Shown here in pieces: positions 608-55,232 of a DNA stretch of 64,000 nt (the stretch's first letter is position 1; each line of letters starts with the position of its first letter). Source of the stretch: Candidatus Kaiserbacteria bacterium (GTDB lineage: Bacteria; Patescibacteriota; Minisyncoccia; Phycocordibacterales; UBA2100); contig JACPLC010000006.1 of the NCBI GenBank assembly GCA_016186695.1, positions 7,283 to 71,282 on the forward strand. The letters run 5' to 3'. Both the position numbers and the translations under genes were made by a program. The notes beneath the pieces are model-generated. The model was not told the DNA's origin and made no database searches. It saw only the letters and a list, made by a program, of their open reading frames with translations.

Positions 608-2707
608 TTAACTTTTAAGCAAAAATTCGATATCGCTCTTCAAAATCTGATATCCCTGTTCGTTGAGCAATTTGCCTCGATAACTATTCAACTGCTTAAG
701 CATAGCTTGGAGTATACGTTTAGCAATGAAGGGCGGTGTTTGTTTTGCCGCTTTCAGCTGCGCTTTTAGTGATTTATATATTCCGATACTCACCCATTTG
801 AGTTGGTAAATTCGTTCGAGATCTGCCAGCGTGCTTTGGTACGTAACAACAACATCTAATGCGTTCGGGGGCATCACACCGTTTTGAACCTCCAGATTCA
901 GCTCCGATGTAATGCCCAGCGCGGTATTCCCTGTAAACGACGCGCTCGTGGTTGTTGCCTCGCTAATTAAATTCGTTTCGACAGTGAAGGGTCCACTCCC
1001 CGTTCCTTGCGCGTAGATTTTATATTCGCCGTCGAGCGGATTGAGGATCGTGATGAATTCTGTATCCGTGCCAAATCCTGTATAGAATGCGTTCAAGATT
1101 TCGTTTACCTCCTGCCCATTGAAGTCCTTCCCGATTTTCTTGCCATCAGGACTGATAATAAGAAGATCCGCGGGAGATAGTATCTTCATCAAGAGTATTT
1201 TCGCATCCGGAAGATGGAAGTTTTTAACAATTACTGAAGGGTTCTGACCTCTTAGGGCGACGTACACTTCAGGCTGTGCCTCTATGGGCAAGTCATTGTG
1301 AGTAAATGAAACCAGCACCTTATTTTCATCAACAAAAGAAGCACTCGGAAGAGGCACGGTATTATCGCCGCTTCCTAATATTAATCCGTGATCACCAAAC
1401 AAATCGAAAAATCCTTCTGGATAGCCGTGTTCCCACATTGGAGGAGAGGGGCTATCCACTACGTTTATGCCAACAATTGTTTTTTGCTCTGTGACACTAC
1501 CGACGATGTTATGAATATCAATTCCAGCGTCTAATAAATTGTTGACATTATTATTTAGTGCCTCAAGAAATGTATTCGTAGGATAATTTTGGGGGTAGTC
1601 TCGTAAAAGGTTCTCATCAAAAATGTAATCATAAACGGGCAGCAACTCTCTGACTGCATCAATGGGTTCTGTTCGCAGATAAGCAAACAAGCTAGAATAA
1701 CCCTCTTCTGCCGCTTCGTGCCCTAGAATGAGTTCCAGTACCTCGTCAACAATGCTTTTAGTAGGAGCAAATATTTCCGTGGGCCCTAATTCGCCGCCTT
1801 CCCACATTAAATACGCTTTCGGGGCGCCGAGGTGGGGCGTGCCGAGGAAAATCAGTTGATCGACGTCGTTTTCGTAGGTGTCGGACTGCACATATTGCCG
1901 TGCGACGAGACCGCCCATTGAGTGCGCGACAAGATCGACTTTGTCGCAGTCGCAAATATCTTTCACTTGATTGATCTTCTCTTTCAGCAACACAGCCGTC
2001 TCGACATTCGACTTTCTCCAATCATACGGAAAAGTGAACAAATCTACTTCTCTGGTGTATCCATTTTCGTCGAGCGTTGCGATGAGATCGTCATACGTGT
2101 GAAGAATCGGGTCTATCACCCACTCGCCGTTGTGCTGTTCCGAGCCCAAGATCCCCGGAACGATAATGACAGGGTCGGGAGTCGCGTTTGCGTCGGTAAT
2201 CGTGAAGCGGAGCGTCGCAAGAACAGTCAGTGGGTCGGGTACGGGGAAGTCTTGCGCGTACGCAATGTCGGCGAACAACGCGCGTGCGAACCATATACGT
2301 AGTCGATCCTTGAAGATAAGTATCGGCGGTGGGATTTCGAGGATATCTATCTCATACACGCCGGCCTCGATCCATGCGAAGAGTTCGTCGCCGTCGTTCG
2401 GATCATCGGGATCGTCAAATGTCGGACCGCTGAAGAACGACTTGACGAATTGTCGCTCACCGGCGCCGTCGATCGTGTAGAGGCGTCCGACAATATCAAA
2501 GGCCGCCGGCCCAGTGACGTAGGTGAGCGCGGGAGCATTGAGAGACACGCTGTAGGTGCCTCCATCGAGCATGACAACGTCTCCCCATACAAGAGACGAT
2601 TCGTGCGGCGGTGGGACTGCTGTTGCATCTACCCGTTCAAGAAAGAAAACAAAAATTAATAACAAAAGTATAAGGACAGGAACCGTAACTCGCAGCGCGA
2701 CCCTCAT
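608..2707 (-). CDS. secreted alpha/beta-hydrolase (GXSXG lipase/esterase, PGAP1/LCAT-like) with large extra domains
   Basis: 699 aa. N-terminal signal/TM (VTVPVLILLLLIFVFFL). Nucleophile elbow VAHSMGGLVARQYV in the central region. Confidence 0.7.
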   Translation of the reverse strand: MRVALRVTVPVLILLLLIFVFFLERVDATAVPPPHESSLVWGDVVMLDGGTYSVSLNAPALTYVTGPAAFDIVGRLYTIDGAGERQFVKSFFSGPTFDDPDDPNDGDELFAWIEAGVYEIDILEIPPPILIFKDRLRIWFARALFADIAYAQDFPVPDPLTVLATLRFTITDANATPDPVIIVPGILGSEQHNGEWVIDPILHTYDDLIATLDENGYTREVDLFTFPYDWRKSNVETAVLLKEKINQVKDICDCDKVDLVAHSMGGLVARQYVQSDTYENDVDQLIFLGTPHLGAPKAYLMWEGGELGPTEIFAPTKSIVDEVLELILGHEAAEEGYSSLFAYLRTEPIDAVRELLPVYDYIFDENLLRDYPQNYPTNTFLEALNNNVNNLLDAGIDIHNIVGSVTEQKTIVGINVVDSPSPPMWEHGYPEGFFDLFGDHGLILGSGDNTVPLPSASFVDENKVLVSFTHNDLPIEAQPEVYVALRGQNPSVIVKNFHLPDAKILLMKILSPADLLIISPDGKKIGKDFNGQEVNEILNAFYTGFGTDTEFITILNPLDGEYKIYAQGTGSGPFTVETNLISEATTTSASFTGNTALGITSELNLEVQNGVMPPNALDVVVTYQSTLADLERIYQLKWVSIGIYKSLKAQLKAAKQTPPFIAKRILQAMLKQLNSYRGKLLNEQGYQILKSDIEFLLKS

Positions 2708-41850: not shown

Positions 41851-42531
41851 TTAAAATCGTTTGATTAGTTCGTCCAGACCGGACGAGGCAGCTTTAAGAT
41901 CGTTCGTTAGTCGTTGAGCAGTTCTGTTAACCTCGCGTTTAGCGTCTTCAGGGGGTCTGCCAGCCTTTTCAAGCGCACTTAATTCATCGACATAGCGTTC
42001 AGTTCCTTGGACCGAATTTAACAAGTCGAATAACCGTGTGCGAACATTTAAAAGGTGACCAATAGCTCCATTTATCGCCCGAGTACGTCCTTCCCAAGCC
42101 TGAACAAGCTTCTGTTGTGCATCTGGGGAGAAGCGTGTGTCACTTCCGAGCGTACCGCGCCTCTCTGTGGCATTAGCAAATGTCTTCCTACCATGCTGCA
42201 TCAGGTTTCCATTATCCACGAGAAGGCCGAGAACTGGAGCAATGTTTGCCCTCAAGCCTTCGGTCGTTTTTCTTAGCGATTCTGTACTGGCCTTAGCAGA
42301 AACAACCTGTGTTGCATCAATTTGCTTCTTGAGATTAACCACCTGAATCTTTACTTCAGAGATTTGAGAAGCAAATTCGTCGATCTGTTTAACAACTTCG
42401 GCACTTTTGTCACCTGGCTCTACTTCTTTTCCGCAGGCTGCGAGAAGTGACATGGCAGACATCGAGGCGACGAATGCTCCCCCTCTCTTCAAAAATTCTC
42501 TCCGGTTCAAACCCCGTTCGAGCGAACCCAT
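41851..42531 (-). CDS. Tat-signal lipoprotein, coiled-coil, unknown function
   Basis: MGSLERGLNRREFLKRGGAFVASMSAMSLLAACGKE: twin-arginine motif RREFLK plus lipobox LLAAC. The rest is helical. Confidence 0.55.
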   Translation of the reverse strand: MGSLERGLNRREFLKRGGAFVASMSAMSLLAACGKEVEPGDKSAEVVKQIDEFASQISEVKIQVVNLKKQIDATQVVSAKASTESLRKTTEGLRANIAPVLGLLVDNGNLMQHGRKTFANATERRGTLGSDTRFSPDAQQKLVQAWEGRTRAINGAIGHLLNVRTRLFDLLNSVQGTERYVDELSALEKAGRPPEDAKREVNRTAQRLTNDLKAASSGLDELIKRF

Positions 42532-42604
42532 TAGCTGATTATAGCCTACAAATCCGAACCGACGCCCCTCCTCCGCCAAGGCTTCGGAGGGCAAAGCCAT
42601 CGAG

Positions 42605-43027
42605 CTACAACTCACTGTCTATTCCCATCGACCTTGCTGTTCCTGCAATTATCTTTTTTGCTTGCTCGATATCGTTGGCGTTCAAATCTTCCATTTTCTC
42701 CTCGGCAATTTCCTTGAGCTGCTGCTTCGAGAGTTTGCCCACCTTGTTCTGCGGCTTCTGCGAGCCTTTTTCCATATTGAGCTTCTTCAAAATGAGGCGC
42801 GAGGCTGGTGGCTTTTTGACAATGAAGGTGAAAGAGCGGTCCTTGTACACGGTCATCAATACCGGCACGACGTTGCCAATCATTGGACGTGTCTGTTCGT
42901 TGAACTGCTTCACGAACTCACCGATATTCACACCTGCAGGCCCAAGCGCCGTGCCCACAGGCGGCGCGGGAGTCGCCGCGCCCGCGGCGATCTGCAACTT
43001 AATTATCTTTGTGATTTCTTTGGCCAT
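42605..43027 (-). CDS. rplK: 50S ribosomal protein L11
   Basis: [46 protein letters not shown]... Confidence 0.95.
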
Positions 43028-44205: not shown

Positions 44206-45024
44206 CTACCGGATCTCGTAGGTGACACTGACGTTTGAAACAATCTTGTTCTCGCCGACAGGAATTTCCGGCCCGATCGCTTTGCTTTCGCGCGCCATAG
44301 CAACGTCACCTCCCATGCCATAGGCATACGGCATCGGCGGGTAGTAGCCGTTTTCGCTGAAGCCGACGACACGTACGAGCGAAACGTTGAGTTGCTTCGC
44401 CAATTCCGCCGCTTTCGAGCGTGCGTCGTCGATCGCCTTGCCACGCGCTTCCGCGTCAAGTGCATCCTGATCATCAATGGTGAACGAGAGACCGCTCACA
44501 CTGGAAGCGCCGAGAGAGCCGACTCCGGAGAGAAGATCACCCGCCTTCTCGGTGTCGCGCACTTTTACCGTGAGTGTTTGAGATACCTGAAACCCTCTCA
44601 GCTCCTGCCGACCGGGGGGGCAATATCCGTCGCGGCAACTTGAAGCCTGCAGGTAATCGTACTGCGGGTAGACGCTGTAATCAGCGGTCTTGATATCTTT
44701 TTCCTCGACCCCCTCTCCTTTGAGGTAGGCGTAGATGTCATTCGATTTTTTCGTCGCGACATCCTGCGCGTCCTTCACCTCTTTTGCCTCCTCTTGGATG
44801 GTCACGGAGAAGGTTGCAAGGTCGGGAACTGCAAAAACTTCCCCTTCACCAGAAACTGTAATGGTGTTTGTGGCAGTGACGCCACTTCCAATGAAGCGGA
44901 ACTCTTTCAGCGCCGAAACCGTGAGAACCAAAAGAAAAAGCGCAAGAAACCCAAGCGCGGTCGCCGCCATCGTGCGCGGCCAATGCGTTGCCTCGATAAA
45001 TTTGTCAACAGCACGTTCATCCAT
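44206..45024 (-). CDS. SIMPL/DUF541-domain protein (periplasmic, membrane-anchored)
   Basis: N-terminal TM, then TVSGEGEVFAVPDLATFSVTIQEEAKEVKDAQDVATKKSNDIYAYLK... typical of SIMPL (Omp28-like). Confidence 0.65.
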   Translation of the reverse strand: MDERAVDKFIEATHWPRTMAATALGFLALFLLVLTVSALKEFRFIGSGVTATNTITVSGEGEVFAVPDLATFSVTIQEEAKEVKDAQDVATKKSNDIYAYLKGEGVEEKDIKTADYSVYPQYDYLQASSCRDGYCPPGRQELRGFQVSQTLTVKVRDTEKAGDLLSGVGSLGASSVSGLSFTIDDQDALDAEARGKAIDDARSKAAELAKQLNVSLVRVVGFSENGYYPPMPYAYGMGGDVAMARESKAIGPEIPVGENKIVSNVSVTYEIR

Positions 45025-45109
45025 AGAGATAGTGACTGGTGGTTAGCCAATAGTGGTTAGTAAAAGATAGCATATCAATGACCATGACGTCTGTGTGAAG
45101 TGGATATTA

Positions 45110-45168
45110 CCCTCCTTCGCATCTCACACATATATATGGCAATTGTCGAGAGTGTGTGAGAAGGAGGG
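45110..45168. promoter_or_regulatory. inverted repeat in divergent promoter region (SIMPL gene <-> dedA)
   Basis: ccctccttcgcatctcacaca ... tgtgtgagaaggaggg (about 16 bp arms) around an AT-rich core tatatatggcaattg. Confidence 0.35.
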
Positions 45169-45232
45169 CCCTGCGAAGCTTTAGCGAAGCAGGGCTGATG
45201 CTTCGGAGGGCAGGCACGGTATACTGTCTGCC

Positions 45233-45826
45233 ATGGATCCGGGCTTCCTGATGGGGCTCATTGCCGAGTATACCTATATCATCATCGCCCCGGCGGCGTT
45301 AGCCCTCGGCCCTATCGTGGGCCTCGCAGCGGGTGTGCTTCTGCGCCTTGATGTGCTCGCGCTCATTCCGACCTGTCTTGCGCTCGCAACAGGAGAGCTG
45401 GGCGGAGATATTCTCTGGTACTGGCTCGGGCGACGCTACGGCGACACGTTCGTCGCCCGTTTCGGCCGCTACGTGGGAGTAACAGAGGAAGCCGTTTCTT
45501 CTGCTAAAAAACTTTTTGAAAACCATCACGACATGATCATCTTTTCTTCCAAACTGACATCAGGACTCGGATTCGGCTCTGTCATCATGTTTACCGCCGG
45601 CCTCTCACGCGTTCCCTTTCGCCGCTACATGATGCTCAACATCGCGGGACAATTCCTTTGGACCGCAGGGCTTATCTCTATCGGCTACTTCCTCGGACAC
45701 ATCTACCTCAAAGTCGGAAATGCGTTCGAGAAAGTGGCGCTCTTCGCGCTGATCGTACTCATCGTCGCCTCACTCATCGGCTTCGGCCGCTATCTACGCA
45801 ATCGCCTTTCTCAAGAAACATTATGA
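45233..45826 (+). CDS. dedA: DedA-family membrane protein
   Basis: 197 aa, 4-5 TM. DedA core ...FGRYVGVTEEAVSSAKKLFENHHDMIIFSSKLTSGLG... Confidence 0.75.
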   Translation: MDPGFLMGLIAEYTYIIIAPAALALGPIVGLAAGVLLRLDVLALIPTCLALATGELGGDILWYWLGRRYGDTFVARFGRYVGVTEEAVSSAKKLFENHHDMIIFSSKLTSGLGFGSVIMFTAGLSRVPFRRYMMLNIAGQFLWTAGLISIGYFLGHIYLKVGNAFEKVALFALIVLIVASLIGFGRYLRNRLSQETL

Positions 45827-46552
45827 GCCAGACGCTCGATCCCAGTTTGTGGAATACGCTCGTTTGAACAGAACAATCCAGATCCCGTTCAGCACCCACC
45901 TCGTCAGGAGTGGGATCCACCCTATCGCATGAGCTCGTCGGCCACTGAAATAGATCTGTAGGGAAGGATCAAGCAGAGTCCTTCCTATTTTGGACAAGCG
46001 TATAAAAAGATCGGCATCTTCTGAAGCAATAATCTTTTCATCAAAACCTCCGATATTTCCGAAAGCCGTTGCCCGTACAATCATGCATTTGCCATGGGTA
46101 AGACCAAAACCAAAAACATTATTCGCCAGGCGATAGTACGCATCAAAGAATCCGAGCACAAGTTTGTCGGCCCATGTTTCAATCTCAGGATACACGCGTA
46201 CGCTAGTCGTTAGCGCAACGAGACGAGCATTCGATTCAAAGTGTCTCAATACTGCGGGGAAAAATGTTTCGGGGTTGCGAATGCGTACATCACTATCAAG
46301 AAAGAAAAGTATTGGAAAACCCGCTTCTCTGGCGCCACGATTCCGCGCTGCGCCGATCGTTTTCGGGATCTCTCCTCGGTAGCGGACAACCCGATCCGCG
46401 TATGAGCCCGACAACTCGATTGTCCTATCGGTACTTCCGTCATCCGAAAGAATAATCTCATATGGAATACCTACAGCCCCCTTACGCAAATGTTTCAAGG
46501 TCTCCACAATTATAGATTCCTCGTCGTGAGCGGGAATAATGAATGAAATCAT
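45821..46552 (-). CDS. family-2 glycosyltransferase
   Basis: MISFIIPAHDEE... DxD (FFLDSDVR). Lower GC than flanking core genes. Confidence 0.8.
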   Translation of the reverse strand: MISFIIPAHDEESIIVETLKHLRKGAVGIPYEIILSDDGSTDRTIELSGSYADRVVRYRGEIPKTIGAARNRGAREAGFPILFFLDSDVRIRNPETFFPAVLRHFESNARLVALTTSVRVYPEIETWADKLVLGFFDAYYRLANNVFGFGLTHGKCMIVRATAFGNIGGFDEKIIASEDADLFIRLSKIGRTLLDPSLQIYFSGRRAHAIGWIPLLTRWVLNGIWIVLFKRAYSTNWDRASGS

Positions 46553-46560
46553 ACCTAATT

Positions 46561-46790
46561 ATGAATCCAATCCGCCGCTATCCTGCCAAGCATATCATCT
46601 TGGTAAGCGAGGGTGTGCTTCTGCGCCTTGATGTGATCGCACTCGGGCACATTTACCTCAAGGTCGGTGATGCGTTCGAAAAAATGGCTATCTTTGTGCA
46701 CTGATGATTCTCCTTCTCGTGTCGTTGGTGGGTTTTGGTCGATACGTACGAGAGCCTTTGCTAACGTGAGGTATTCGGCCGTGACTTTCT
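46561..46790 (+). pseudogene. internally deleted, decayed copy of dedA (5' segment fused to 3' end, premature stops)
   Basis: 46607-46631 is 25/25 identical to dedA 45321-45345. 46640-46760 aligns to dedA 45697-45818 with decaying identity. Translation gives GHIYLKVGDAFEKMAIFVH* against dedA's GHIYLKVGNAFEKVALFAL... Confidence 0.65.
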
Positions 46791-47463
46791 AACGTTGAGA
46801 CAACTTCAACATCGCATATATCTGTCGAATGACACCAAAAAAGGAGGTTATCTTAACAATCTGGATGGCCATCTTCCAGTCTGCAACAGTACCATTCCAC
46901 CAGCCAACTTTCTCCCTCTTTCTTGTGTTCCGGACCGTATCGAACGGGACGATCGCCAATCGTAAGCCTCGATTGATGAGGTATTTGTTCATGAAAGTCT
47001 CAAGGCCATAAGATGGCAACGCGGCTATTTCCTTCTGATAGTCAGTGATGAGCCTACGCGGTACTAGTCGTTCACCCGAGAGGAAATCAATGCCGATTAT
47101 CCTAAACGTATACGGTGCGTTCCGACGTAAAGAAATGGACCAATCGGCTTTCCCCGAGAGCACAGGCTCCGAGAGTGCCGCAACGTCTGACGAGCTCAGA
47201 TTTTCCAGATCAGCGTCGAGGAGCATGATGAAATCACCTTTTGCTTGAAGCACGCCATGAATAAACGCTTTGCTTTTCCCCACGTTGCGCTCCAAAGCTA
47301 CAAGACGAGCCTGCGGAAATCCGCGAACAACATCTCGTGTGCCATCTTGTGAACCATCATCAACAACGACAACCTCGTCGAGTGAGGGATGTCCAACAAC
47401 GACTCGCAATACGTTGCCAATGCGAGAGGCTTCGTTATAAGCGCAGATAACGCAGGAGATCAT
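46789..47463 (-). CDS. family-2 glycosyltransferase (DPM1-like)
   Basis: MISCVICAYNEASRIGNVLRVVV...EVVVVDDGSQDGT...MLLDADL. Confidence 0.8.
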   Translation of the reverse strand: MISCVICAYNEASRIGNVLRVVVGHPSLDEVVVVDDGSQDGTRDVVRGFPQARLVALERNVGKSKAFIHGVLQAKGDFIMLLDADLENLSSSDVAALSEPVLSGKADWSISLRRNAPYTFRIIGIDFLSGERLVPRRLITDYQKEIAALPSYGLETFMNKYLINRGLRLAIVPFDTVRNTRKREKVGWWNGTVADWKMAIQIVKITSFFGVIRQIYAMLKLSQR

Positions 47464-47537
47464 AGCCGCCGTTTAAACAGAGCCCTCATCCTTGACAGCA
47501 TATCACCTTACTCTCATTTAATTTTTCCCTGCTATTA

Positions 47538-48782
47538 TTGAAGTCCATGATAGAGAGCCTCGTAAAGGAGAGAGACGACTTTGAGAAGCAGTTCAAAAGA
47601 ATCACAACGCTCGAACTTCCGGGAAGAAGCAATAAACCGAACGATGCGACCGTCGTACAAGTTATAGAAGTTGCGCCACCGCAAGAAAAAATCACGAATC
47701 CGCGAAGGCTAGTATTCGCGACGGCATTTGTCCACGTCTTGAAGGCCTACAAGCCGCTATTGCACGCTCTCTACAGCGAGGGCAGATCGACCCTTACATT
47801 TGATCATCCCCGAGCGGGCGGCGTACTGCCTGATCTTCCGCAAGACGAGTACGAAGCCGTTAAAGATTTTCTCAACAACGAATCTGAAAGAGGTATAACG
47901 GCTCCGGAGGAAGTCCGCGCGGCCCGCATATTGCTCGATGTGCTCGCCTCAAGAAATGAGGTGCAGGTCGACATGTTAACGCATTCGAGAGGTTTTGGGT
48001 ACAGCGTTGTAGCTGCGCTCATAGATAACGTACGCGCCAAGAAAGAAGGTAGGCTGAATAGGATTCGGAACATTGTTGCCTCGGGCCCGAATGGTCTCAT
48101 GGGTGAGGACACCATGTATGAAGTCGCAAAACGAGCACTCGCTGAAGATACAACCCAGATTAACTTTGGACCCGATTTCGGACACCCATCGATCTCCATG
48201 GACGATCTTGCGTACAAGGTGGCAATGGATCGTCTAGAGAAAGTGCAGAAAGGAGAGTTGCCGATAGATACGGAGATAGACGCCACGAAGATACGGGAAG
48301 AGTTAGAAAAAATGAAAGCGCGAGCAAAGGCTCGCGGTATCACAGAGTATGGTCCCCCCGACACAGAAACGCTGGAATCAATAAAAGAAGCGGCAACGCT
48401 CGTAGACCCTGAGACGTATATACTGGGCCGAGAAGATGCTAGAGCAAACATAAAAAAGGGACTCTTTTCGTATCTCTCTAAGGAGAGTCGCCAAGGTATC
48501 AAGCGCTCGCTGCGGGAGTGGGCTGGTCTTTCTCGCGTCAAATTGAACGACATCCTCCCAAAACTTCGTGAACTGGATATCGGCATCGCAATAGTTCGTG
48601 GGACTGACGACAAGGTTTTCCCGTCAGAAAGAATTGCGCTGTATATGAAAACTCTTCGTGAGTTTGGCATCCTTGATATCCAAATGACTGCAGTGCACGA
48701 CTCTGTAAACCGTGATCCGCGCGTGGCACATATTCTGAACGGCGTTTTCACCCAGCTCGAGCAGCAGCGATCTTTGCATTAA
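47538..48782 (+). CDS. alpha/beta-hydrolase-fold protein (cytoplasmic, with large insertion)
   Basis: Nucleophile elbow THSRGFG. Acid GTDDKVFP. His AVHDSV. No signal peptide. Confidence 0.5.
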   Translation: MKSMIESLVKERDDFEKQFKRITTLELPGRSNKPNDATVVQVIEVAPPQEKITNPRRLVFATAFVHVLKAYKPLLHALYSEGRSTLTFDHPRAGGVLPDLPQDEYEAVKDFLNNESERGITAPEEVRAARILLDVLASRNEVQVDMLTHSRGFGYSVVAALIDNVRAKKEGRLNRIRNIVASGPNGLMGEDTMYEVAKRALAEDTTQINFGPDFGHPSISMDDLAYKVAMDRLEKVQKGELPIDTEIDATKIREELEKMKARAKARGITEYGPPDTETLESIKEAATLVDPETYILGREDARANIKKGLFSYLSKESRQGIKRSLREWAGLSRVKLNDILPKLRELDIGIAIVRGTDDKVFPSERIALYMKTLREFGILDIQMTAVHDSVNRDPRVAHILNGVFTQLEQQRSLH

Positions 48783-48889
48783 GTGCTATTCAATCTTATA
48801 CATCGGCCTGATAGCGAGGAGATAGATATTCGCTATGCCAAAAACAACCACGAGCGTCCAGGTGCTCTCCAACGAATATCCAAGCAGGC

Positions 48890-49696
48890 TCAGGAGGCTC
48901 TGGCAAATTGATCGATCTCGGCGGCAACCTCTTCGACATTGTTCACGACAAGGATGTGGTTACCGTTCTCTAAAACTACGAGTTTTGCACTGGGCATCAA
49001 CGTGAGCAATTCCTTAGCGTTACGTATGGGAATAACCGTATCTCGTTTTCCGTGTATCAGAAGCACGGGAATCTTAATACCGAACCACCAATCTCTTGTA
49101 TCGCGCGAGTATATCTGGCGCATGCAAAAAACATAAACACGGGCGCTCGTTAGGCGAATGTCCGAGAGAATGCGGCGCGGACTCCAATCCCATGTAGGTG
49201 CGTATTTCGCATAATCCAAGCGCCCCCTTCCTTGCTCCGTAAACGGCAGTATGAGAGAAAGCAGGCCAAACACCGCGACAGCAGCAAAGCCGATCGGTAA
49301 CCACCACGCCCCCGATGCGCCATAGGTCGGGCTAAGAAAAACGGCAGAAGAAAATCTCTCGGGTGCTTGCTTAATCGCTGCGAGCGCGAGCAATGAGCCA
49401 AGCGAATGCCCGACGAGAATACATCGCTCTATACCGGTATATGTAAGGAGCGCGATGATGTCATCACCCATCAACTCGGGCGCATAGGTATTATAGAAAA
49501 AGAATTTCCGCGATTTACCGTGACCGCGTAGATCAAAGGTGAGTATATTGTATTTGTCTTCAAAGATTCTTTCGTACGGATACCATGCCGAGCAGCTCCC
49601 CGAGAGTCCGTGGACAAAGACGAGCGTCGGCCTGTCGCCTCGGAATTGATTGCTGCGAAAACTCAGTCCACGTTCCTCAAAAAAGTTCTCCCTCAT
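48890..49696 (-). CDS. alpha/beta hydrolase
   Basis: LVFVHGLSGS...GHGKS...VGHSLGSLLAL...IHGKRDTVIP. Confidence 0.8.
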   Translation of the reverse strand: MRENFFEERGLSFRSNQFRGDRPTLVFVHGLSGSCSAWYPYERIFEDKYNILTFDLRGHGKSRKFFFYNTYAPELMGDDIIALLTYTGIERCILVGHSLGSLLALAAIKQAPERFSSAVFLSPTYGASGAWWLPIGFAAVAVFGLLSLILPFTEQGRGRLDYAKYAPTWDWSPRRILSDIRLTSARVYVFCMRQIYSRDTRDWWFGIKIPVLLIHGKRDTVIPIRNAKELLTLMPSAKLVVLENGNHILVVNNVEEVAAEIDQFARAS

Positions 49697-50214
49697 GACT
49701 TTTGTTCTAGAACATATATGGGTCTGATGAGAAGCAGGTGGATATTAGCGATCGCGAAAGCGACCACCGCCATCCAGACACTCTCCAGTGGATATCCAAG
49801 GACCACCCCTCCCCAGGCGGCTCCACATGCGGCAGCTCCTACGAGATTAACCCGGATCTTACGCCGCAGAATTTTTTCGTACGAAGTATGTTTGAGGAGA
49901 AAGACATATTTCACTGATGCGACAAGAAAAAGACCGAGTGCGATAAGAAAGAACCTGACCTCATCATTCATGGAAAAAGCGAGCAGAAGATAGAATGCGA
50001 GAAGAACTGTATCTATGACCTTCTGTAAAAGGTCAGCGGGTAGGAGAGACGAGAAAAATCGCACGGAAAAGAATGTGTTGAGGATGAGTAGAGCGTAAAA
50101 AACTGCGAGTGGAATTCCTGTTGGTTCCCACCAGATTTGTTCAAAGTAGAAACTAGCGAGTCCGGCGATCGCAAAAATAATGGTGGCAAGACCAGCTCTA
50201 AGTGTTGAAGACAT
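49693..50214 (-). CDS. polytopic membrane protein (about 5 TM), unknown function
   Basis: Hydrophobic 173-aa ORF. It lies between a GT2 gene and a hydrolase gene, so it looks operonic. Confidence 0.5.
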   Translation of the reverse strand: MSSTLRAGLATIIFAIAGLASFYFEQIWWEPTGIPLAVFYALLILNTFFSVRFFSSLLPADLLQKVIDTVLLAFYLLLAFSMNDEVRFFLIALGLFLVASVKYVFLLKHTSYEKILRRKIRVNLVGAAACGAAWGGVVLGYPLESVWMAVVAFAIANIHLLLIRPIYVLEQKS

Positions 50215-50248
50215 TGCGCAAAATACTGTTTACATTGCTCAAAATACC

Positions 50249-51004
50249 CTAGTGTCGCACGTCTTGATAAGTGTTGTGGAATGATTTCCCGAAAATCAGA
50301 CCCCAGAAATAGTTGATCGTGTAGCGAAACGCCGTGACAATCATGCCCTCTCGCTGTATACGGCGCGCAGACGAGTATACGGGAAGTTTGAATGTAAAGA
50401 TAACTTTCCCAACTTTGACTATTCGCCGGCCAATATCACTGTCTTCTCCATAAAATTCAATACGCCTGTCGTACCCACCGATTTCTTGCAGAGCTCGTCG
50501 TCGTACCACATAGTTTCCCCCTTGAAGAAAGGCGCCCGTGCCAAACAACGCCTTGGTCATTCCCTGAGAAACAAAGACCAGAACATACCAAAACCACACT
50601 AAGAACCTCTTCGTTCGCGATTCGAGATCATAGTGAATGAAAGGTCCGCTTAGCGCGACAAGGCTGGGATCACTCGAAAATGCATCCATCACTTTCTTTA
50701 ACCACCCCGTAGAAAGTCTTGAGTCAGCGTCGATATTCGCGACGAGGTCTCCCGAAGAGGCAAGGAACCCTGCGCTCCTAGCCCACACTAACCCCTTGTG
50801 TGGTTCGTCAATAACTTTTACCTCAGGGTACGAACGAGCAACAGCTGCCGTTTTATCCGTCGAAGCGTTATTAACTACGATGATTTCTATAGGATAGGGG
50901 TTGCTTTTGCCTTCGCGTTTAATGGATTCTATGCACTCGCCGACATAGTCTTGCTCATTATATGCGGGGATCACGAAGCTCAATTTCATATGTGATGTCG
51001 GCAT
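50249..51004 (-). CDS. family-2 glycosyltransferase
   Basis: KLSFVIPAYNEQDYV...IIVVNNASTDKT...NIDADS. Confidence 0.8.
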   Translation of the reverse strand: MPTSHMKLSFVIPAYNEQDYVGECIESIKREGKSNPYPIEIIVVNNASTDKTAAVARSYPEVKVIDEPHKGLVWARSAGFLASSGDLVANIDADSRLSTGWLKKVMDAFSSDPSLVALSGPFIHYDLESRTKRFLVWFWYVLVFVSQGMTKALFGTGAFLQGGNYVVRRRALQEIGGYDRRIEFYGEDSDIGRRIVKVGKVIFTFKLPVYSSARRIQREGMIVTAFRYTINYFWGLIFGKSFHNTYQDVRH

Positions 51005-51135
51005 TAAAGATTATCTAGCAAACCCCTGGACCTTTCGCGAAGATAAGCTTCTGGATCACACTTGCATTATACCGAGTTGGGGCAATCGCCGGAAACCCGA
51101 CACACGCAATCGTGTGAACGGGCAGGTCGAACCCT

Positions 51136-51181
51136 AAACTTGGGCGACTGTCGAAAATTGAACTTCAAACTTGGGTGACCG
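51136..51181. repeat. 15-nt direct repeat of tRNA-His 3' end/flank (aaacttgggCgacTg / aaacttgggTgacCg), 31 nt apart
   Basis: Read directly. The second copy overlaps the last 8 nt of the tRNA-His gene. Resembles an att-site-like partial tRNA duplication. Confidence 0.5.
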
Positions 51182-51246
51182 GCGGGACTTGCACCCGCAA
51201 CCGCCTGGACCACAACCAGGAACTCTACTGTTGAGCTACGGCCACC
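51174..51246 (-). tRNA. tRNA-His (anticodon GTG) with encoded G-1, no encoded CCA
   Basis: Reverse complement is G-GUGGCCG UA GCUC AACAGUA GAGU U CCUGG UUGUGGU CCAGG CGGUU GCGGG UGCAAGU CCCGC CGGUCAC C. Anticodon loop UUGUGGU. Extra 5' G pairs with C73. Confidence 0.85.
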
Positions 51247-51247
51247 A

Positions 51248-51751
51248 TTACGATCGGGGCTTTAGGAGACCGCGATCACGTCCCACATCATAATGGTGAA
51301 CGAGAAAATGGCAATTATGACAGAGCCACGCAAGGTTATCTCCGGAATTATTCAGTCGATTACGATCTTTGTGGTGGACAGCCAAAATTCGCGTGTCAGA
51401 AGTCTTGCATACCTCGCAAACTTTCTCCCGCTTTGTTCGATTGAGCGCTGTAACCGAAGCGGAGCTCGAATGCCCATCCTTCCAACTCTTGTTATTCGGT
51501 CCGAAGAAGACCTGATTTCTCCAAATCGTCTGGCATGATTTATTGCAAAAATATTTCTTGTGCTTCGCTAGCCGCAAGCGTTTAGGGGATCTATAAAGTT
51601 CTTTGCCGCATGTGCCACATGCGACGTATTTGCCGGAGCGAATCGCAGCGTAGTGACAAGCATTCGAACAATACTTGCCGCCCCCTCTTCTGACTAAGAA
51701 AGGCTTTCTTTTAAACTCCTGCCGGCAGACTGTACATATGTAAATAGCCAC
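51248..51751 (-). CDS. HNH endonuclease with N-terminal Cys-rich zinc-finger region
   Basis: C-terminal HNH motif ...VCEVCKTSDTRILAVHHKDRNRLNNSGDNLAWLCHNCHFLVHH. Several CxxC pairs N-terminally. GC is lower than the core. GTG start lies directly after GGAG. Confidence 0.8.
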   Translation of the reverse strand: MAIYICTVCRQEFKRKPFLVRRGGGKYCSNACHYAAIRSGKYVACGTCGKELYRSPKRLRLAKHKKYFCNKSCQTIWRNQVFFGPNNKSWKDGHSSSASVTALNRTKREKVCEVCKTSDTRILAVHHKDRNRLNNSGDNLAWLCHNCHFLVHHYDVGRDRGLLKPRS

Positions 51752-51763
51752 TCCTAGAGCATA

Positions 51764-51800
51764 TCACATGGTCTTCTGAATTTTTCAGAAGACCATGTGA
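51764..51800. promoter_or_regulatory. perfect 37-bp palindrome (17-bp arms, 3-nt spacer) immediately upstream of the HNH gene RBS
   Basis: tcacatggtcttctgaa-ttt-ttcagaagaccatgtga. It ends 9 nt before AGGAG/GTG of the HNH ORF. No U-tract follows on either strand. Confidence 0.55.
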
Positions 51801-51891
51801 ACATCTTGGCAGAAATTTCCGGAACACGCGACGCCGCCCCGTGAGAGAAGCGTACGCTTTCCGCACGGGGCGACGTCAAAAAGCACGAGGT

Positions 51892-52281
51892 CTACATTGT
51901 TGCCGGTTGCGCTCCGCTTGCCATACTGCTTCCTTCCTTCAAGCCGAAGCCGGCCCAAAGAGCCACGGCCGCGATCACAAGGTGCAGCACGTGGTCGGCC
52001 GTGTTGGTCGCGATAAGCCCCAAAACGGTGTCGCCTTGTAGAAAGCCCACCACCGCCACGACGGCGTATACAACGCCAAATACCTGAAAGTACAGGCGGG
52101 CGTAGTTCCCTGCAAGCACTGCACCGAGTGCAAGAATTCCCGAGAGAAGATGGATAATGTTGTGGAGCGGATCCACCTCAAATATCCCGAGGAGGCTGCC
52201 GCCCGGCGTGAGAGCCGGCACGAAACCTAAAGCGCCGACGACAACAAACACGATCCCGAAAACCCACGCGAGTTTCTGAAC
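51892..52281 (-). CDS. small 4-TM membrane protein
   Basis: MVQKLAWVFGIVFVVVGALGFVPA... Four hydrophobic segments. Confidence 0.5.
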   Translation of the reverse strand, partial: VQKLAWVFGIVFVVVGALGFVPALTPGGSLLGIFEVDPLHNIIHLLSGILALGAVLAGNYARLYFQVFGVVYAVVAVVGFLQGDTVLGLIATNTADHVLHLVIAAVALWAGFGLKEGSSMASGAQPATM

Positions 52282-52325
52282 CATACATGGTCTATCTAGT
52301 CTGCCGCTAAATCGACCTTTCACCC

Positions 52326-53435
52326 CTAGCGTACCACGAGCTCTATGGGCACCGGCTCAAGAACGTTGACAACTTCAAATGTAACCCTCCCGATAAGCTG
52401 TCCGAACTCTGTCACGACGTTTACCTGCCACTTTCCTTCGCTCGCCTGGAACTTGATTGAGTAGCCGCGGTAGCCGCCATCACGCCCTCCCACGATAAAG
52501 TAGGGAATTGTCTCCTCTGTTGCCCACTTCCCGGAGCGCCCATCGTAGTACTGCCACTCGTGGGAGATTGTCGTTGAAAGTCCGGTCGGTGCGAAAATTG
52601 CCGTATAGACGTACACGGGTTCGTCCGGTGACCGATGAAAGGTCGTGTTGTATCGGAGATACGCTTCGTACCAGGGTGTCGGCTCCGCGAGAAGCCGATA
52701 CTCGTCATCAATGCGCACCGCTCCGTGATACACGCCGGCGTCCTTGAGAGCAAGCGGGAGTGGCGGAATGGCACCGGTAAAGTAGAGCGCGTTGAAAATG
52801 AGAAAGATCACCGCTACGGAGCGCGCAACACGCGTTCGCTCGGACCTCGCACGCTCAGGTACAAGGCGCGAGAGACCATAGAAAAACGTCACGATGACGA
52901 GAAGGCTTACGAAACCGCTTGCGACAAACACGTATGGTCCTATCTTCCCAAAGACTACGGGCAGAAAGAAGATGAAAAACGAGAAGAGGACTACGAAAAA
53001 CATGCTGAACTGGAAGACAAAGCGCGTGTAGAGGCGTACGAACCGTTCGTTCCCGATGAGAAGCGCGGCGAGAATGAAAATGAAAATCCAGCTGATTTGC
53101 AGGGCAGCACTCCTCGAGTACAAAGAAAGGTAGGCTGTGAACAGCCCACCGAATGCAAATTGCGCAACGACGGGAATGAGCGGCAACACCTTGAGAATCC
53201 ACGGGCGCGAAAGACGCCCTGTTTCGATCAAGTTCATCGCGACGATCGAGGACGCGGCAACCGCCAGATAGAAAAAGAGGACGGCGTTCGTTGTCCAGAG
53301 ATCTACCCGCCGCAAAAGCACAAAATAATCGAAAACAAGAGCCGCGATCAGGGCAAGCGGCGAAATATTGCGCATGTACCAATGCGCCAGCTCTTCTACG
53401 TTTTTGGGGAGTTTCTGCAGGTACTTTCTGACCAT
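52326..53435 (-). CDS. polytopic membrane protein with C-terminal extracytoplasmic beta-domain, unknown function
   Basis: About 6 TM segments in the N-terminal 220 aa. The C-terminal 150 aa is soluble (…WQYYDGRSGKWATEETIPYFIVGG...). Confidence 0.5.
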   Translation of the reverse strand: MVRKYLQKLPKNVEELAHWYMRNISPLALIAALVFDYFVLLRRVDLWTTNAVLFFYLAVAASSIVAMNLIETGRLSRPWILKVLPLIPVVAQFAFGGLFTAYLSLYSRSAALQISWIFIFILAALLIGNERFVRLYTRFVFQFSMFFVVLFSFFIFFLPVVFGKIGPYVFVASGFVSLLVIVTFFYGLSRLVPERARSERTRVARSVAVIFLIFNALYFTGAIPPLPLALKDAGVYHGAVRIDDEYRLLAEPTPWYEAYLRYNTTFHRSPDEPVYVYTAIFAPTGLSTTISHEWQYYDGRSGKWATEETIPYFIVGGRDGGYRGYSIKFQASEGKWQVNVVTEFGQLIGRVTFEVVNVLEPVPIELVVR

Positions 53436-54488: not shown

Positions 54489-55151
54489 TTACAACTGCTC
54501 GCCGATTATACGCAGTGCTTTCTCTATCTTCAAGCGCTTCCTCCTAAGGCACAACACGTCCCCCTGATAATAGACTTTCTTGAGCAGTTTCAAAGAATCG
54601 GCCTTGGCATATTTGAGCTGGATCGTCGTACCCTTCGCATCCCGAGTTACGTGTCCTTCTACCCCTATCTTCCTCGAAATCAAAGAGCGCAACCAGGTGA
54701 TATGTTTCTCGCTTGCAGAAACAAAAGTTGTATAGAACATAAAACTTGATTTCCACCTAGGGTCCCAATATGAATAAAATGTTCCGTCTCCATCTAAGTG
54801 ACCCCGAAGAAAATCCCAGAAATATTTTGGGGGAATCTGCACTTCTCTAATAATCTTTGTCTTATTGGGCATGAGCCCTATGGACAAGAGAAAACTATAC
54901 AGAATAACATTCCCAAACTGAATACGCGGAGTTCTTGTGCCAGTGTAGCCCGAGGATGTCGCGCCGACTGAAACCTCAATATTCAAGGCGTGCATGATAT
55001 TTCTGAGCTGTTCAGCATCGCTAGACACAAAAATGATATGCCTGCCATCGTTGGACAAGCAGCCATCTGTCACGAGAAGTCCGATTGCGTACGCAAGATT
55101 AGGTGTCCACTCAATCCTTTTTCCTTTCGGCTTCCTTCCCCGTCTTGCCAT
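54489..55151 (-). CDS. free-standing double-motif LAGLIDADG homing endonuclease
   Basis: Motif 1 LAYAIGLLVTDGCL. Motif 2 FWDFLRGHLDGDGTF. Local GC is markedly lower than the neighbours. Intergenic, between rplS and a PduO-type gene. Confidence 0.8.
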   Translation of the reverse strand: MARRGRKPKGKRIEWTPNLAYAIGLLVTDGCLSNDGRHIIFVSSDAEQLRNIMHALNIEVSVGATSSGYTGTRTPRIQFGNVILYSFLLSIGLMPNKTKIIREVQIPPKYFWDFLRGHLDGDGTFYSYWDPRWKSSFMFYTTFVSASEKHITWLRSLISRKIGVEGHVTRDAKGTTIQLKYAKADSLKLLKKVYYQGDVLCLRRKRLKIEKALRIIGEQL

Positions 55152-55232
55152 CAGTGTAATTATATGGCAGCTCAAGTATATAGCGTCTACCAATTGTTGA
55201 TAAATAAAAAAACCTATACTCGAGAACTCTAC

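What the first reader, a model, noticed from the sequence alone, without database searches (positions are those of the whole stretch)
45821..51800. Lower-GC envelope-glycosylation island bounded by a dedA duplication scar and a tRNA-His/HNH end
Between dedA (45233..45826) and tRNA-His (51174..51246), GC visibly drops from the ~58-60% of the flanking aaRS and ribosomal genes. The region carries three GT2 glycosyltransferases, two alpha/beta hydrolases and two membrane proteins. One border has an intact dedA plus an internally deleted, decayed dedA copy (46561..46790) on the far side of the first GT2 gene. The other border is a tRNA gene whose 3' end/flank is duplicated 31 nt away (51136..51181), next to an HNH endonuclease. 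This combination (tRNA attachment, partial tRNA duplication, endonuclease, target-gene duplication) is the classic signature of a horizontally acquired or rearranged accessory locus. I see no integrase or transposase here, so the mechanism is not obvious.
Basis: partly seen in the sequence, partly recalled or inferred. Interest (0 to 1): 0.6.

Follow-up and report, generated by a model that had tools for sequence, protein, structure and literature searches.

The report
Variable sugar-gene slot plus tRNA-replacing endonuclease
This stretch of a Kaiserbacteria (CPR) genome is a strain-variable slot of cell-envelope glycosylation genes, not an integrase-type island, and at its tRNA end sits a small selfish cassette: an HNH endonuclease gene with its own tRNA-His that has replaced the resident tRNA-His gene.

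Summary
The observations hold, with corrections. GC is 0.487 in the region against 0.539 elsewhere, and GC3 steps sharply at dedA|GT2a and HNH|DUF4383. The decayed dedA copy is real. Four independent assemblies reproduce the arrangement.

There is no integrase, and no att repeats sit at the island ends. Every Kaiserbacteria relative has glycosyltransferase or hydrolase genes between dedA and tRNA-His, but their content, order and orientation differ. Two strains are 99.99% identical up to the slot and then share nothing. GT2a and GT2c are 86% and 73% identical to genes of a distant 49%-GC lineage whose core proteins are only 48-61% identical. I read this as a long-standing hypervariable glycosylation slot remodelled by recombination. 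The pseudo-dedA is the scar of stacking two alternative slot heads, dedA/GT2a and dedA/GT2b.

The "tRNA duplication" is the last 22 nt of a different tRNA-His allele, the one relatives carry at this locus. In 75 of 80 metagenomic loci, homologues of the HNH gene are immediately followed by a tRNA-His. They are often flanked by a tRNA-His 5' half ending at position 37/38, or by a 3' end starting at about position 52. This indicates a mobile HNH + replacement-tRNA-His cassette. I found no description of it. Cleavage activity is inferred, not shown.

The parts
45233..45826 (+). Intact dedA (VTT/DedA family, best match UptA-type polyprenyl-phosphate transporter). It is the conserved left anchor of the slot.
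   Evidence: Pfam VTT_dom E 1.3e-12. NCBIfam UptA E 2e-12, below the curated cutoff. GC3 0.64, like the core genes. Present next to SIMPL in the relatives L001-L014 that were anchored on dedA.
45821..46552 (-). GT2a glycosyltransferase. It lies tail-to-tail with dedA, overlapping it by 6 nt.
   Evidence: Pfam Glycos_transf_2. The same junction occurs in L009/L010, where GT2a is 93% identical but dedA only 82% and SIMPL 75-77%. It is 86% identical in the distant L019. GC3 is 0.455.
46611..46769 (+). Pseudo-dedA. It keeps residues ~33-44 fused to ~154-end, has lost codons 45-153, and carries a 2-nt frameshift. It lies tail-to-tail with GT2b.
   Evidence: blastn to dedA gives E 1e-11 and 3e-12, with a 109-nt extension at 71% and matching translations. 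It is present in the four independent assemblies L015-L018. An intact dedA tail-to-tail with GT2b is seen in L028.
46789..47463 (-). GT2b glycosyltransferase. Its weak matches are to polyprenyl-phosphate sugar transferases (ArnC, PpgS, AglJ).
   Evidence: Pfam and NCBIfam sub-threshold hits. Homologues of 50-55% identity sit in the same slot in L004, L007, L028, L029 and L048.
47538..48782 (+). p414, an alpha/beta-fold hydrolase with a large helical cap. It belongs to a rare family of about 10 relatives.
   Evidence: No Pfam, PHROG or NCBIfam family. 10 homologues were found. H149-S150-R151-G152 is invariant; D358 and H387 are nearly invariant. The AF2 model has pLDDT 64, and its Foldseek PDB hits are all alpha/beta hydrolases. 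The module p414-abh-mem-GT2c recurs in L025, and without abh in L023.
48890..49696 (-). Alpha/beta hydrolase (abh). It overlaps mem173 by 4 nt.
   Evidence: Pfam Abhydrolase_1 E 6e-27. Homologues occur in the slot of L001-L003, L005, L006, L014 and L025.
49693..50214 (-). mem173, a membrane protein of unknown family with about 5 hydrophobic segments.
   Evidence: No family hit. Hydropathy. 37-45% homologues sit next to GT2c in L019, L023, L025 and L040.
50249..51004 (-). GT2c glycosyltransferase, the gene of the slot nearest the tRNA.
   Evidence: Pfam E 6e-32. 73% identical to L019, against 47-53% in closer relatives, where it is on the opposite strand.
51096..51122 (-). Conserved hairpin in the native flank downstream of the tRNA-His locus.
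   Evidence: The same sequence (gcccgttcacacg..cgtgtgtcggg) lies downstream of tRNA-His in L005 and L014, although the adjacent genes differ. Coordinates. It is predicted to be paired in the fold.
51142..51163 (-). Relic of the displaced resident tRNA-His ('type II' allele): T-loop to 3' end, positions ~53-73.
   Evidence: 2 mismatches to L019's 22-mer, with 0 of 100 shuffles giving any hit in 64 kb. 21/24 identical to L019, against about 15/25 to the window's own tRNA by my hand alignment. Relics starting at about position 52, 8-20 nt after the intact tRNA, are seen in L026, L039, L040, L048, L104 and L023.
51173..51245 (-). Intact tRNA-His(GTG), 'type I' allele, carried by the cassette. G-1 is encoded by the preceding base.
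   Evidence: ARAGORN and Rfam at 56.6 bits. Nearly the same allele lies next to HNH in L014, L026, L047 and L048.
51248..51751 (-). Free-standing HNH endonuclease gene (two CxxC pairs plus the HNH motif). It ends 2 nt before the tRNA-His.
   Evidence: PHROG 1271 E 1e-20 and Pfam HNH_3. The HH..N..N..H and Cys columns are invariant. Present in L014, L023 and L025 and absent in L003-L007 and L019 at the same locus. 75 of 80 homologous loci carry tRNA-His immediately downstream. GC3 is 0.494.
51767..51797 (.). Perfect 14-bp palindrome (CATGGTCTTCTGAA AAA TTCAGAAGACCATG) in the HNH leader, at the place where relatives keep the 5' half of the displaced tRNA.
   Evidence: Sequence. Related inverted repeats derived from the anticodon arm lie upstream of HNH in L033, L041, L043, L046, L051, L056, L062, L082, L084 and L086. 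Its function is unknown.
51793..51809 (-). Remnant of the native upstream flank of the displaced tRNA-His (CCAAGATGTTCACATG|G).
   Evidence: It aligns by eye with the flank immediately 5' of the intact tRNA-His in L003 and of the 5' relic in L014 (..AATGTTCGCATG|G). This is a similarity judgement, not a statistical test.

Best explanation
Two superimposed things are present, not one island.

(A) 45821-51004 is the current content of a long-standing hypervariable slot of cell-envelope glycosylation genes. In Kaiserbacteria and their relatives the slot lies between dedA (a UptA-like polyprenyl-phosphate transporter) and tRNA-His. It is rebuilt by recombination and horizontal exchange of gene modules among Parcubacteria lineages. 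In this lineage two alternative slot heads were joined in tandem: dedA tail-to-tail with GT2a, and dedA tail-to-tail with GT2b. The redundant second dedA, which has no promoter, decayed by a microhomology deletion and a frameshift into the pseudo-dedA. Much of the content (GT2a, mem173, GT2c and others) has the composition of a lower-GC donor lineage.

(B) 51164-51792 is a separate ~0.65-kb selfish cassette. It consists of a free-standing HNH endonuclease gene followed directly by a complete tRNA-His gene. The cassette inserted into the resident, different-allele tRNA-His gene. The junctions seen across loci lie at the anticodon loop (after position 37/38) and at about position 52. The insertion destroys the resident gene and supplies a replacement. 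Here only the last 22 nt of the old gene and its flanks remain.

The insertion and replacement are shown by comparison. That the HNH enzyme cuts the other allele and drives homing is inferred.
For: (A)
- Synteny of the flanks is conserved while slot content, order and strand vary in all relatives.
- L011 and L014 are 99.99% identical for 7.6 kb and then share no homology from the end of the first GT2 onward. Each variant is found in two assemblies.
- GT2a is 93% identical in L010, where dedA is 82% and SIMPL 77%.
- GT2a and GT2c are 86% and 73% identical in L019, but mem173 is 37%, p195 48% and L19 61%. L019's overall GC is 0.49, like the island.
- GC3 steps sharply at the borders. Most relatives show no GC dip in their own slot.
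- An IS30-like transposase lies next to a GT2a homologue in L021.
- The pseudo-dedA is real and reproduced in four assemblies. Both junction types exist singly in relatives.

(B)
- The relic matches another allele, not the window's own tRNA.
- L014 carries a 5' half that is 37/37 identical to L006's tRNA. It sits in the same native flank as L003's intact tRNA, directly upstream of HNH.
- L039 carries both halves of one disrupted tRNA around the HNH-tRNA pair, and their acceptor strands are complementary.
- tRNA-His follows the HNH gene in 75 of 80 loci.
- About 24 partial tRNA-His hits flank the pair on the same strand, against 3 internal partial hits for Leu, Arg and Pro controls.
- The relic and the cassette tRNA belong to different allele classes in 16 of 18 loci, in both directions.
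- 83 of 84 HNH ORFs are intact.
- HNH identity does not track mem369 identity: L026 is 74/57% and L014 is 48/74%.
- No group I intron is detected.
Against: - All evidence is comparative. No cleavage or transfer has been demonstrated.
- I could not identify the donor of the pseudo-dedA or say which dedA is the newcomer.
- Low GC3 could partly reflect low expression or relaxed selection. Other genes in the window are also low (608-2707, 26645-29458, 41851-42615).
- GT2 genes in relatives may be paralogues, which would inflate the apparent incongruence.
- About two thirds of HNH loci show no relic at my thresholds. The pair occupies the native tRNA-His position of each lineage, so long vertical co-inheritance with occasional events also fits many loci.
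- How the cassette's own tRNA escapes cleavage is unknown.
- The window lacks the 5' relic, and its 3' relic is short (22 nt).
Confidence: 0.6

Rival explanations
1. Classic tRNA-targeted genomic island. One element integrated site-specifically at the 3' end of tRNA-His, brought the glycosylation genes, and duplicated part of the tRNA and of its target dedA. The integrase has since been lost.
For: The composition is atypical, with sharp borders. The block lies immediately 3' of tRNA-His, and a partial tRNA-His copy exists. Distant relatives have tRNA-His directly next to SIMPL, with no dedA or GT block (L072, L103).
Against: No integrase or excisionase family was hit. No tRNA-derived repeat lies at the dedA-side border or anywhere else in the window. 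The partial copy lies 9 nt from the tRNA, belongs to another allele, and has the same architecture as HNH cassettes elsewhere. All relatives anchored on dedA carry related genes in the same slot. dedA belongs to the block rather than being a target.
Confidence: 0.08
2. Ordinary vertical evolution. The slot genes are ancestral. The pseudo-dedA is an old in-situ tandem duplicate. Low GC reflects weakly expressed membrane and glycan genes. HNH is a conserved host gene co-transcribed with tRNA-His. The short tRNA-like repeat arose by local slippage.
For: Flank synteny is conserved and the slot is always occupied. The p414-abh-mem-GT2c module is conserved in L025. The HNH-tRNA-His pair is almost universal among HNH homologues and the ORFs are intact. 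A 34-nt piece of the pseudo-dedA is 94% identical to the neighbouring dedA.
Against: Content is replaced between strains that are 99.99% identical. Identities are mosaic: GT2a 86%, mem173 37% and GT2c 73% against L019, whose core proteins are 48-61% identical. The relic matches a foreign allele better than the window's own tRNA. Relics in relatives are 95-100% identical to functional alleles of other lineages and sit in the native flank. HNH is absent at the same locus in L003-L007 and L019.
Confidence: 0.17
3. The HNH gene is the ORF of a degenerate group I intron in the anticodon loop of tRNA-His, like the tRNA-Asn/Asp introns of Patescibacteria. The adjacent tRNA is a later duplicate.
For: The 5' halves end in the anticodon loop at 37/38. 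A complement of the anticodon loop (CCACAA) often follows, resembling a P1/internal-guide pairing. Group I introns with HNH genes do occur in Patescibacteria tRNA-Asn at position 35/36 (PMC13011429).
Against: Rfam finds no group I intron at E<=1 in the window or E<=0.1 in 11 relic-bearing loci. Only about 50 nt plus 0-30 nt of non-coding sequence flank the ORF, which I judge too little for a ribozyme core. The 3' relics start at about position 52 rather than 38, and lie after a complete tRNA. The relic 5' acceptor strand does not pair with the 3' strand of the cassette tRNA (L039). The putative P1 has no U-G pair at the junction.
Confidence: 0.05
4. Assembly or binning artefact: a chimeric contig that joins sequences of different populations.
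For: The source is a metagenome-assembled genome, and the composition changes at gene borders.
Against: Assemblies of four different sequencing runs (L015-L018) reproduce 45061-52338 at 99.97-100% identity, including both scars.
Confidence: 0.02

Closest known systems
Variable surface-polysaccharide loci held between conserved flanking genes (E. coli O-antigen between galF and gnd; pneumococcal cps between dexB and aliA). From general knowledge.
   Same: The chromosomal position is fixed between conserved genes. Glycosyltransferase content differs between strains. GC is lower than the genome average. Exchange occurs by recombination that can involve the flanks and leave gene remnants. The flank gene dedA is unusually divergent here (66-85% identical, against up to 93% for SIMPL and NusG).
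   Different: The slot is very small (1.7-5.3 kb). It has no Wzx/Wzy, ABC transporter or sugar-nucleotide synthesis genes. It contains hydrolases, and it is anchored by a DedA/UptA-like lipid-carrier transporter and a tRNA. The organism is a CPR bacterium whose envelope glycans are unknown.
Free-standing homing endonucleases with 'intronless homing', especially phage T4 SegB in the tRNA gene cluster (PMC2330249).
   Same: The endonuclease gene lies between or next to tRNA genes, with no intron or intein. It is inherited together with the neighbouring tRNA gene. Related genomes differ in its presence. A distant relative of this HNH sits in a phage tRNA array, directly followed by tRNA-Thr (L106).
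   Different: SegB is a GIY-YIG enzyme in a phage, and it converts flanking markers cleanly by homologous repair. Here an HNH enzyme in cellular CPR genomes is tied to one tRNA species (His). The target gene is physically split, its halves remain as relics, and a complete replacement gene travels with the endonuclease.
Group I introns (some with HNH genes) in anticodon loops of Patescibacteria tRNA genes (PMC13011429).
   Same: The same phylum is involved, the same kind of target (the anticodon loop of a GUN-anticodon tRNA gene), and an HNH-family ORF.
   Different: No ribozyme is detected. Gene function is restored by a spare gene copy rather than by splicing. tRNA-His is not among the intron hosts found in my term search of that paper.
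tRNA-gene-targeting integrative elements that carry a copy of the tRNA 3' end (general knowledge).
   Same: A tRNA gene is the target. The incoming DNA restores a functional tRNA. A displaced tRNA fragment remains as a direct repeat.
   Different: There is no integrase. The whole tRNA is supplied rather than its 3' part. The displaced fragment lies 9 nt away rather than at the far end of an island, and 5' halves are also left behind.

Membership tests
tRNA-targeted integrative genomic island | Integrase (tyrosine or serine recombinase) gene at one end | tested here: not met
   Pfam on the ORFs 44206-52323 gives no integrase or recombinase family. Only a relative (L021) has an IS30-like transposase near a GT2a homologue.
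tRNA-targeted integrative genomic island | Direct repeats of the tRNA 3' end at both island borders (attL/attR) | tested here: not met
   Pattern and probe scans find one partial copy only, 9 nt from the tRNA, and none near dedA, GT2a or the pseudo-dedA.
tRNA-targeted integrative genomic island | Empty site in close relatives | tested here: not met
   Every relative anchored on dedA whose contig extends past dedA has genes in the slot. Only distant lineages have tRNA-His next to SIMPL, and there dedA is missing too.
Free-standing HNH homing endonuclease | HNH catalytic motif and zinc-binding cysteines conserved | tested here: met
   H126, H127, N135, N139, H148 and the CxxC pairs are invariant in the 4-sequence alignment. 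PHROG 1271 E 1e-20. 83 of 84 ORFs are intact.
Free-standing HNH homing endonuclease | Not embedded in an intron or intein | tested here: met
   No group I or II intron by Rfam. The ORF stands alone between a short leader and the tRNA.
Free-standing HNH homing endonuclease | Presence/absence polymorphism at a homologous site, with the target sequence interrupted in carriers | tested here: met
   HNH is present in the window, L014, L023 and L025, and absent in L003-L007 and L019 at the same locus. Relic halves of the resident tRNA flank the insertion.
Free-standing HNH homing endonuclease | Site-specific cleavage of the endonuclease-less allele, and resistance of the carrier allele | not testable with these tools
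   This needs purified protein and substrates. The only indirect evidence is that the junctions cluster at positions 37/38 and about 52, and that relic and cassette alleles differ.
Group I intron in a tRNA gene | Ribozyme core (P3-P9), and exons that rejoin into one tRNA | tested here: not met
   There is no Rfam match. The 3' relic starts at about position 52 and follows a complete tRNA. The 5' relic of L039 is not complementary to the cassette tRNA's 3' strand.
O-antigen/capsule-type polysaccharide gene cluster | Glycosyltransferases together with a flippase/polymerase or ABC exporter and sugar-nucleotide genes | tested here: not met
   Only GT2 genes, two hydrolases and one unclassified membrane protein are present. 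No Wzx, Wzy or ABC family is hit.
O-antigen/capsule-type polysaccharide gene cluster | Fixed position between conserved genes, with strain-variable content | tested here: met
DedA / UptA polyprenyl-phosphate transporter | VTT domain; score above the equivalog cutoff for UptA | tested here: inconclusive
   The VTT domain scores 48.7 bits, above its cutoff. The UptA model scores 47.5 bits against a cutoff of 250. Family membership is clear; the specific function is not.

The most novel reading that the evidence does not exclude
CPR bacteria may harbour an undescribed class of homing element: a free-standing HNH endonuclease gene that inserts into the anticodon loop of the host's tRNA-His gene and compensates by carrying a complete, presumably cleavage-resistant, tRNA-His allele, rather than by self-splicing. 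Allele classes replace each other in both directions (type I into II and II into I). That pattern suggests an ongoing drive or arms race over an essential tRNA gene.
Probability: 0.45. Interest if true: 0.75.

Novelty: new variant of a known kind. Interest (0 to 1): 0.6.

Why it matters
CPR/Patescibacteria are thought to live attached to host cells. Surface glycans are likely determinants of attachment and phage susceptibility. A compact slot next to a lipid-carrier transporter, swappable between strains, gives a concrete locus for studying strain-level surface variation in these uncultured bacteria.

The HNH + tRNA-His cassette would show a third way for a homing endonuclease to be tolerated inside an essential gene. 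Introns and inteins repair the product by splicing. This element would instead bring a spare copy of the gene. It would also explain partial tRNA genes in CPR genomes, and it warns annotators that tRNA alleles there can be horizontally replaced.

If the enzyme recognises one tRNA-His allele and spares another, it is a natural, compact, sequence-specific nuclease with a defined pair of target and immune sites that can be tested directly.

Tried and rejected
- **Exact look-up of the dedA product:** it found nothing. The homology search then found the identical protein in an 88.5-kb NCBI Kaiserbacteria contig.
- **Further tRNA-His 3' copies at the dedA side or elsewhere in the window:** none found, so I dropped the att-repeat model.
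- **Donor of the pseudo-dedA:** I compared it at DNA and protein level with 111 dedA homologues and with the GT2b-linked dedA of L028. Its C-terminal part is about equally distant from all of them (66-74% aa; 65-73% nt). The origin is undetermined.
- **Group I intron in the HNH region:** none in the window or in 11 relic-bearing loci.
- **Phage origin of the cassette:** only one 30%-identical relative in IMG/VR.
- **Solved structure related to the HNH protein by sequence:** none.
- **Compensatory covariation in the palindrome upstream of HNH:** complementary and non-complementary arm combinations both occur. I make no claim about it.
- **Candidate 3' relics in L004 and L023:** they did not reach my BLAST/nhmmer thresholds. 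L023 rests on a manual 17-mer match with 1 mismatch, and L004 is left open.
- **GC dip as a general property of the slot:** rejected. L001, L003, L004, L006 and L007 show a dip of 0.012 or less or none, and only L005 shows a comparable one.

Full report
**Checking the observation.** The window is 53.5% GC. The stretch 45827-51172 is 48.7% against 53.9% for the rest, and it is the lowest-GC 5.3-kb stretch in the window. Third-codon-position GC gives the clearest picture. GT2a through HNH are 0.45-0.55, while dedA is 0.64 and DUF4383 and mem369 are 0.63-0.66, so the steps fall at gene borders.

Pfam confirms three GT2 glycosyltransferases, one alpha/beta hydrolase, the DedA (VTT) protein and the HNH motif. 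The 414-aa protein has no family in Pfam, PHROGs or NCBIfam. It does have an invariant H-S-R-G elbow, and its AlphaFold model (pLDDT 64) matches only alpha/beta hydrolases in the PDB.

The decayed dedA copy is real. 46611-46644 matches dedA codons ~33-44 (94%). 46642-46750 matches codons ~154-189 (83% over the first 53 nt, 71% overall, with a 2-nt indel). Codons 45-153 are missing. Assemblies of four other sequencing runs reproduce 45061-52338 at 99.97-100% identity, so nothing here is an assembly artefact.

**Organism and context.** dedA homologues place the window in Candidatus Kaiserbacteria (Parcubacteria, CPR). An identical protein lies on an 88.5-kb NCBI Kaiserbacteria contig. The order NusG-SIMPL-dedA ... 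tRNA-His-(HNH)-(DUF4383)-mem369(DUF2914)-PduO-like p195-tRNA-Leu is conserved across relatives.

**The slot.** In every relative anchored on dedA whose contig extends past it, the interval after dedA holds envelope-type genes, but never the same set.
- L001/L003: GT2(+)-abh(-)-GT2c(+).
- L004/L007: GT4(+)-GT2b(-).
- L005: GT4-abh-GT4.
- L014: GT2-287aa-abh-GT2c.
- L019: GT2a(-)-mem-GT2c(-).
- L023: GT4(-)-p414(+)-mem(-)-GT2(-).
- L025: p414(+)-abh(-)-mem(-)-GT2(-).
- L028: GT2b tail-to-tail with dedA.

The interval is 1.7-3.6 kb in relatives and 5.3 kb in the window.

The strongest single result concerns L011 and L014. They encode the identical dedA protein and are 99.99% identical over 7,616 bp. 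From the end of the first GT2 onward they share no detectable homology, and each version is seen in two independent assemblies. The slot is therefore replaced between strains.

Horizontal exchange is indicated by mosaic identities. L010 has GT2a at 93%, but dedA at 82% and SIMPL at 77%. L019 comes from a more distant lineage of 49% GC (p195 48%, ribosomal protein L19 61%). Yet it has GT2a at 86% and GT2c at 73%, with the gene between them at only 37%. The relatives' own slots mostly show no GC dip, so the dip here is a property of this content and not of the position. A GT2a homologue in L021 sits next to an IS30-like transposase.

In more distant Parcubacteria, tRNA-His is followed within 60-700 nt by SIMPL-NusG. 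The whole block, dedA included, is therefore an older gain or loss just 3' of the tRNA.

**The dedA scar.** The dedA/GT2a junction (6-nt tail-to-tail overlap) is the same in L009/L010. The pseudo-dedA/GT2b junction, also tail-to-tail, has its intact counterpart in L028. The window therefore carries two alternative slot heads in tandem. The second dedA starts 8 nt from the GT2a start codon, which leaves no room for a promoter, and it has decayed.

Relative to L019, the segment pseudo-dedA-GT2b-p414-abh lies between GT2a and the mem-GT2c pair. Relative to L025, the segment GT2a-pseudo-dedA-GT2b lies between dedA and p414. I infer an additive recombination between two variants of the locus, with one end in homologous flank and the other illegitimate. 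I could not tell which dedA is the newcomer. The remnant's C-terminal part is about as far from its neighbour (71% nt) as from other lineages (65-73%). A 34-nt piece is 94% identical to the neighbour, which could reflect gene conversion.

**The tRNA end.** tRNA-His genes at this locus fall into two classes. I call them type I (window, L014) and type II (L003, L005-L007, L019). The 22 nt at 51142-51163 match the 3' end of the type II gene of L019 with 2 mismatches. No shuffle of the window gives any such match. The identity to the window's own tRNA is only about 15/25 by my hand alignment.

Relatives that have the HNH gene show the complementary evidence. L014 has positions 1-37 of a type II tRNA-His, 37/37 identical to L006's gene. 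It sits in the same upstream flank as L003's intact gene and is followed by HNH and then a complete type I tRNA-His. L025 has the same arrangement.

**Breadth.** A metagenome scan with the HNH alignment returned 80 loci at 46-73% identity. In 75 of them a tRNA-His follows on the same strand within about 50 nt. Three contigs end too early, one has a degenerate tRNA, and one has none. The genomic contexts differ (next to p195/mem369, or inside tRNA clusters), but the pair always sits at the tRNA-His locus.

With intact tRNAs masked, BLAST and nhmmer find 18 loci with a tRNA-His 5' half. These halves end at position 34-38 in most loci and lie 44-90 nt upstream of HNH. Seven loci have a 3' end starting at about position 52, 8-20 nt after the intact tRNA. 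All are on the same strand. L039 has both halves, and their acceptor strands are complementary: one gene split around the cassette.

The same procedure with tRNA-Leu, Arg and Pro models gives three internal partial hits. In 16 of 18 loci the relic and the cassette tRNA differ in class, in both directions. Several relics are 95-100% identical to functional alleles elsewhere, which argues for recent, repeated events. Only one of 84 HNH ORFs has a stop codon. HNH identity does not follow flank-gene identity. Rfam finds no group I intron.

**Mechanism.** Shown by comparison: a unit of leader, HNH gene and complete tRNA-His occupies the place of positions ~38-51 (or more) of a resident tRNA-His gene of another allele class. 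Inferred: the HNH enzyme cuts the endonuclease-less allele in the anticodon-stem to variable-loop region. Repair then copies the cassette from a donor, perhaps after DNA uptake. The carried tRNA keeps the cell viable and is presumably not cut. Loci with only one relic may reflect repair with homology on one side and an illegitimate join on the other, or later decay of one relic.

In the window, the cassette spans about 51164-51792. The old gene's upstream flank (51793-51809), last 22 nt (51142-51163) and downstream hairpin (51096-51122) remain.

**Comparison and novelty.** The slot behaves like O-antigen or capsule loci but fails their membership test, since it has no export, polymerase or sugar-nucleotide genes.

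The cassette works like free-standing homing endonucleases such as T4 SegB, which promotes inheritance of the T4 tRNA region (PMC2330249). It occupies the same kind of site as the group I introns recently reported in Patescibacteria tRNA-Asn/Asp genes (PMC13011429). It differs from both in physically splitting its target and carrying a whole replacement gene.

Seven full-text searches found no description of an HNH-tRNA-His pairing in CPR bacteria. The library does not cover all journals.

**Verdict.** The island reading is downgraded to an ordinary, though well-illustrated, variable glycan locus. The tRNA/HNH end is the part worth following up.

Noticed in passing
window 51767-51797; also L033, L041, L043, L046, L051, L056, L062, L082, L084, L086 upstream of HNH: An inverted repeat lies between the place of the tRNA 5' relic and the HNH start. 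Its 5' arm resembles the anticodon loop (TTGTGGA or TTCTGAA) and its 3' arm is the complement (TCCACAA or TTCAGAA). In the window it is a perfect 14-bp palindrome. Mixed, non-complementary arm combinations also occur, so its role is open: endonuclease footprint, terminator or processing site.
   Followed up: partly
window 51096-51122 (-); L005 and L014 downstream of tRNA-His: A conserved hairpin (cccgttcacacg-attg-cgtgtgtcggg) lies ~50 nt downstream of the tRNA-His locus in lineages whose neighbouring genes differ. It may be a terminator or processing signal, and it marks the true right edge of the variable slot.
   Followed up: partly
L064, L065, L068, L069, L094, L097, L102: Two HNH homologues in tandem lie upstream of a single tRNA-His. 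This suggests nested or successive invasions.
   Followed up: no
L106 (IMG/VR phage contig) 3001-3495: A 30%-identical HNH relative inside a phage array of 8 tRNA genes is directly followed by tRNA-Thr. The wider family may be generally associated with tRNA genes.
   Followed up: partly
L039 1229-1260; L097 1805-1856; L058 3628-3678: Partial copies of other tRNAs occur without an adjacent HNH gene: a Pro 5' half next to an intact tRNA-Pro, a Leu fragment (6-57) and an Arg fragment (22-72). tRNA fragments are therefore not exclusive to tRNA-His, only much rarer.
   Followed up: no
L001 12908-12979; L002 4463-4515; L027 3486-3557: A tRNA-His variant with an unusual T-arm (..TTCCGGGGCAGGTCCGGA..) is missed by ARAGORN in L001 and L002 but is 95-96% identical to the gene called in L027. 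L001 therefore does have a tRNA-His at the expected place.
   Followed up: partly
L021 539-1522: An IS30-like transposase (HTH_38 + rve) lies immediately upstream of an 85%-identical GT2a homologue, at the position where the window has the pseudo-dedA.
   Followed up: no
window 608-2707, 26645-29458, 41851-42615, 54489-55193: Other genes have GC3 as low as the island's (0.44-0.52), including a 937-aa ORF. Composition in this genome is patchy beyond the reported region.
   Followed up: no
window 51246-51248 and all tRNA-His loci examined: Every tRNA-His gene and 5' relic printed with its flank is preceded by ATG or GTG. The final G supplies the genome-encoded G-1 that would pair with C73.
   Followed up: no
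proteins P0006 and P0017: One Kaiserbacteria genome (RIFCSPLOWO2_01_FULL_54_24) has two dedA paralogues 27 locus tags apart, 76% and 70% identical to the window's dedA. Intact dedA duplicates therefore exist in the group.
   Followed up: no
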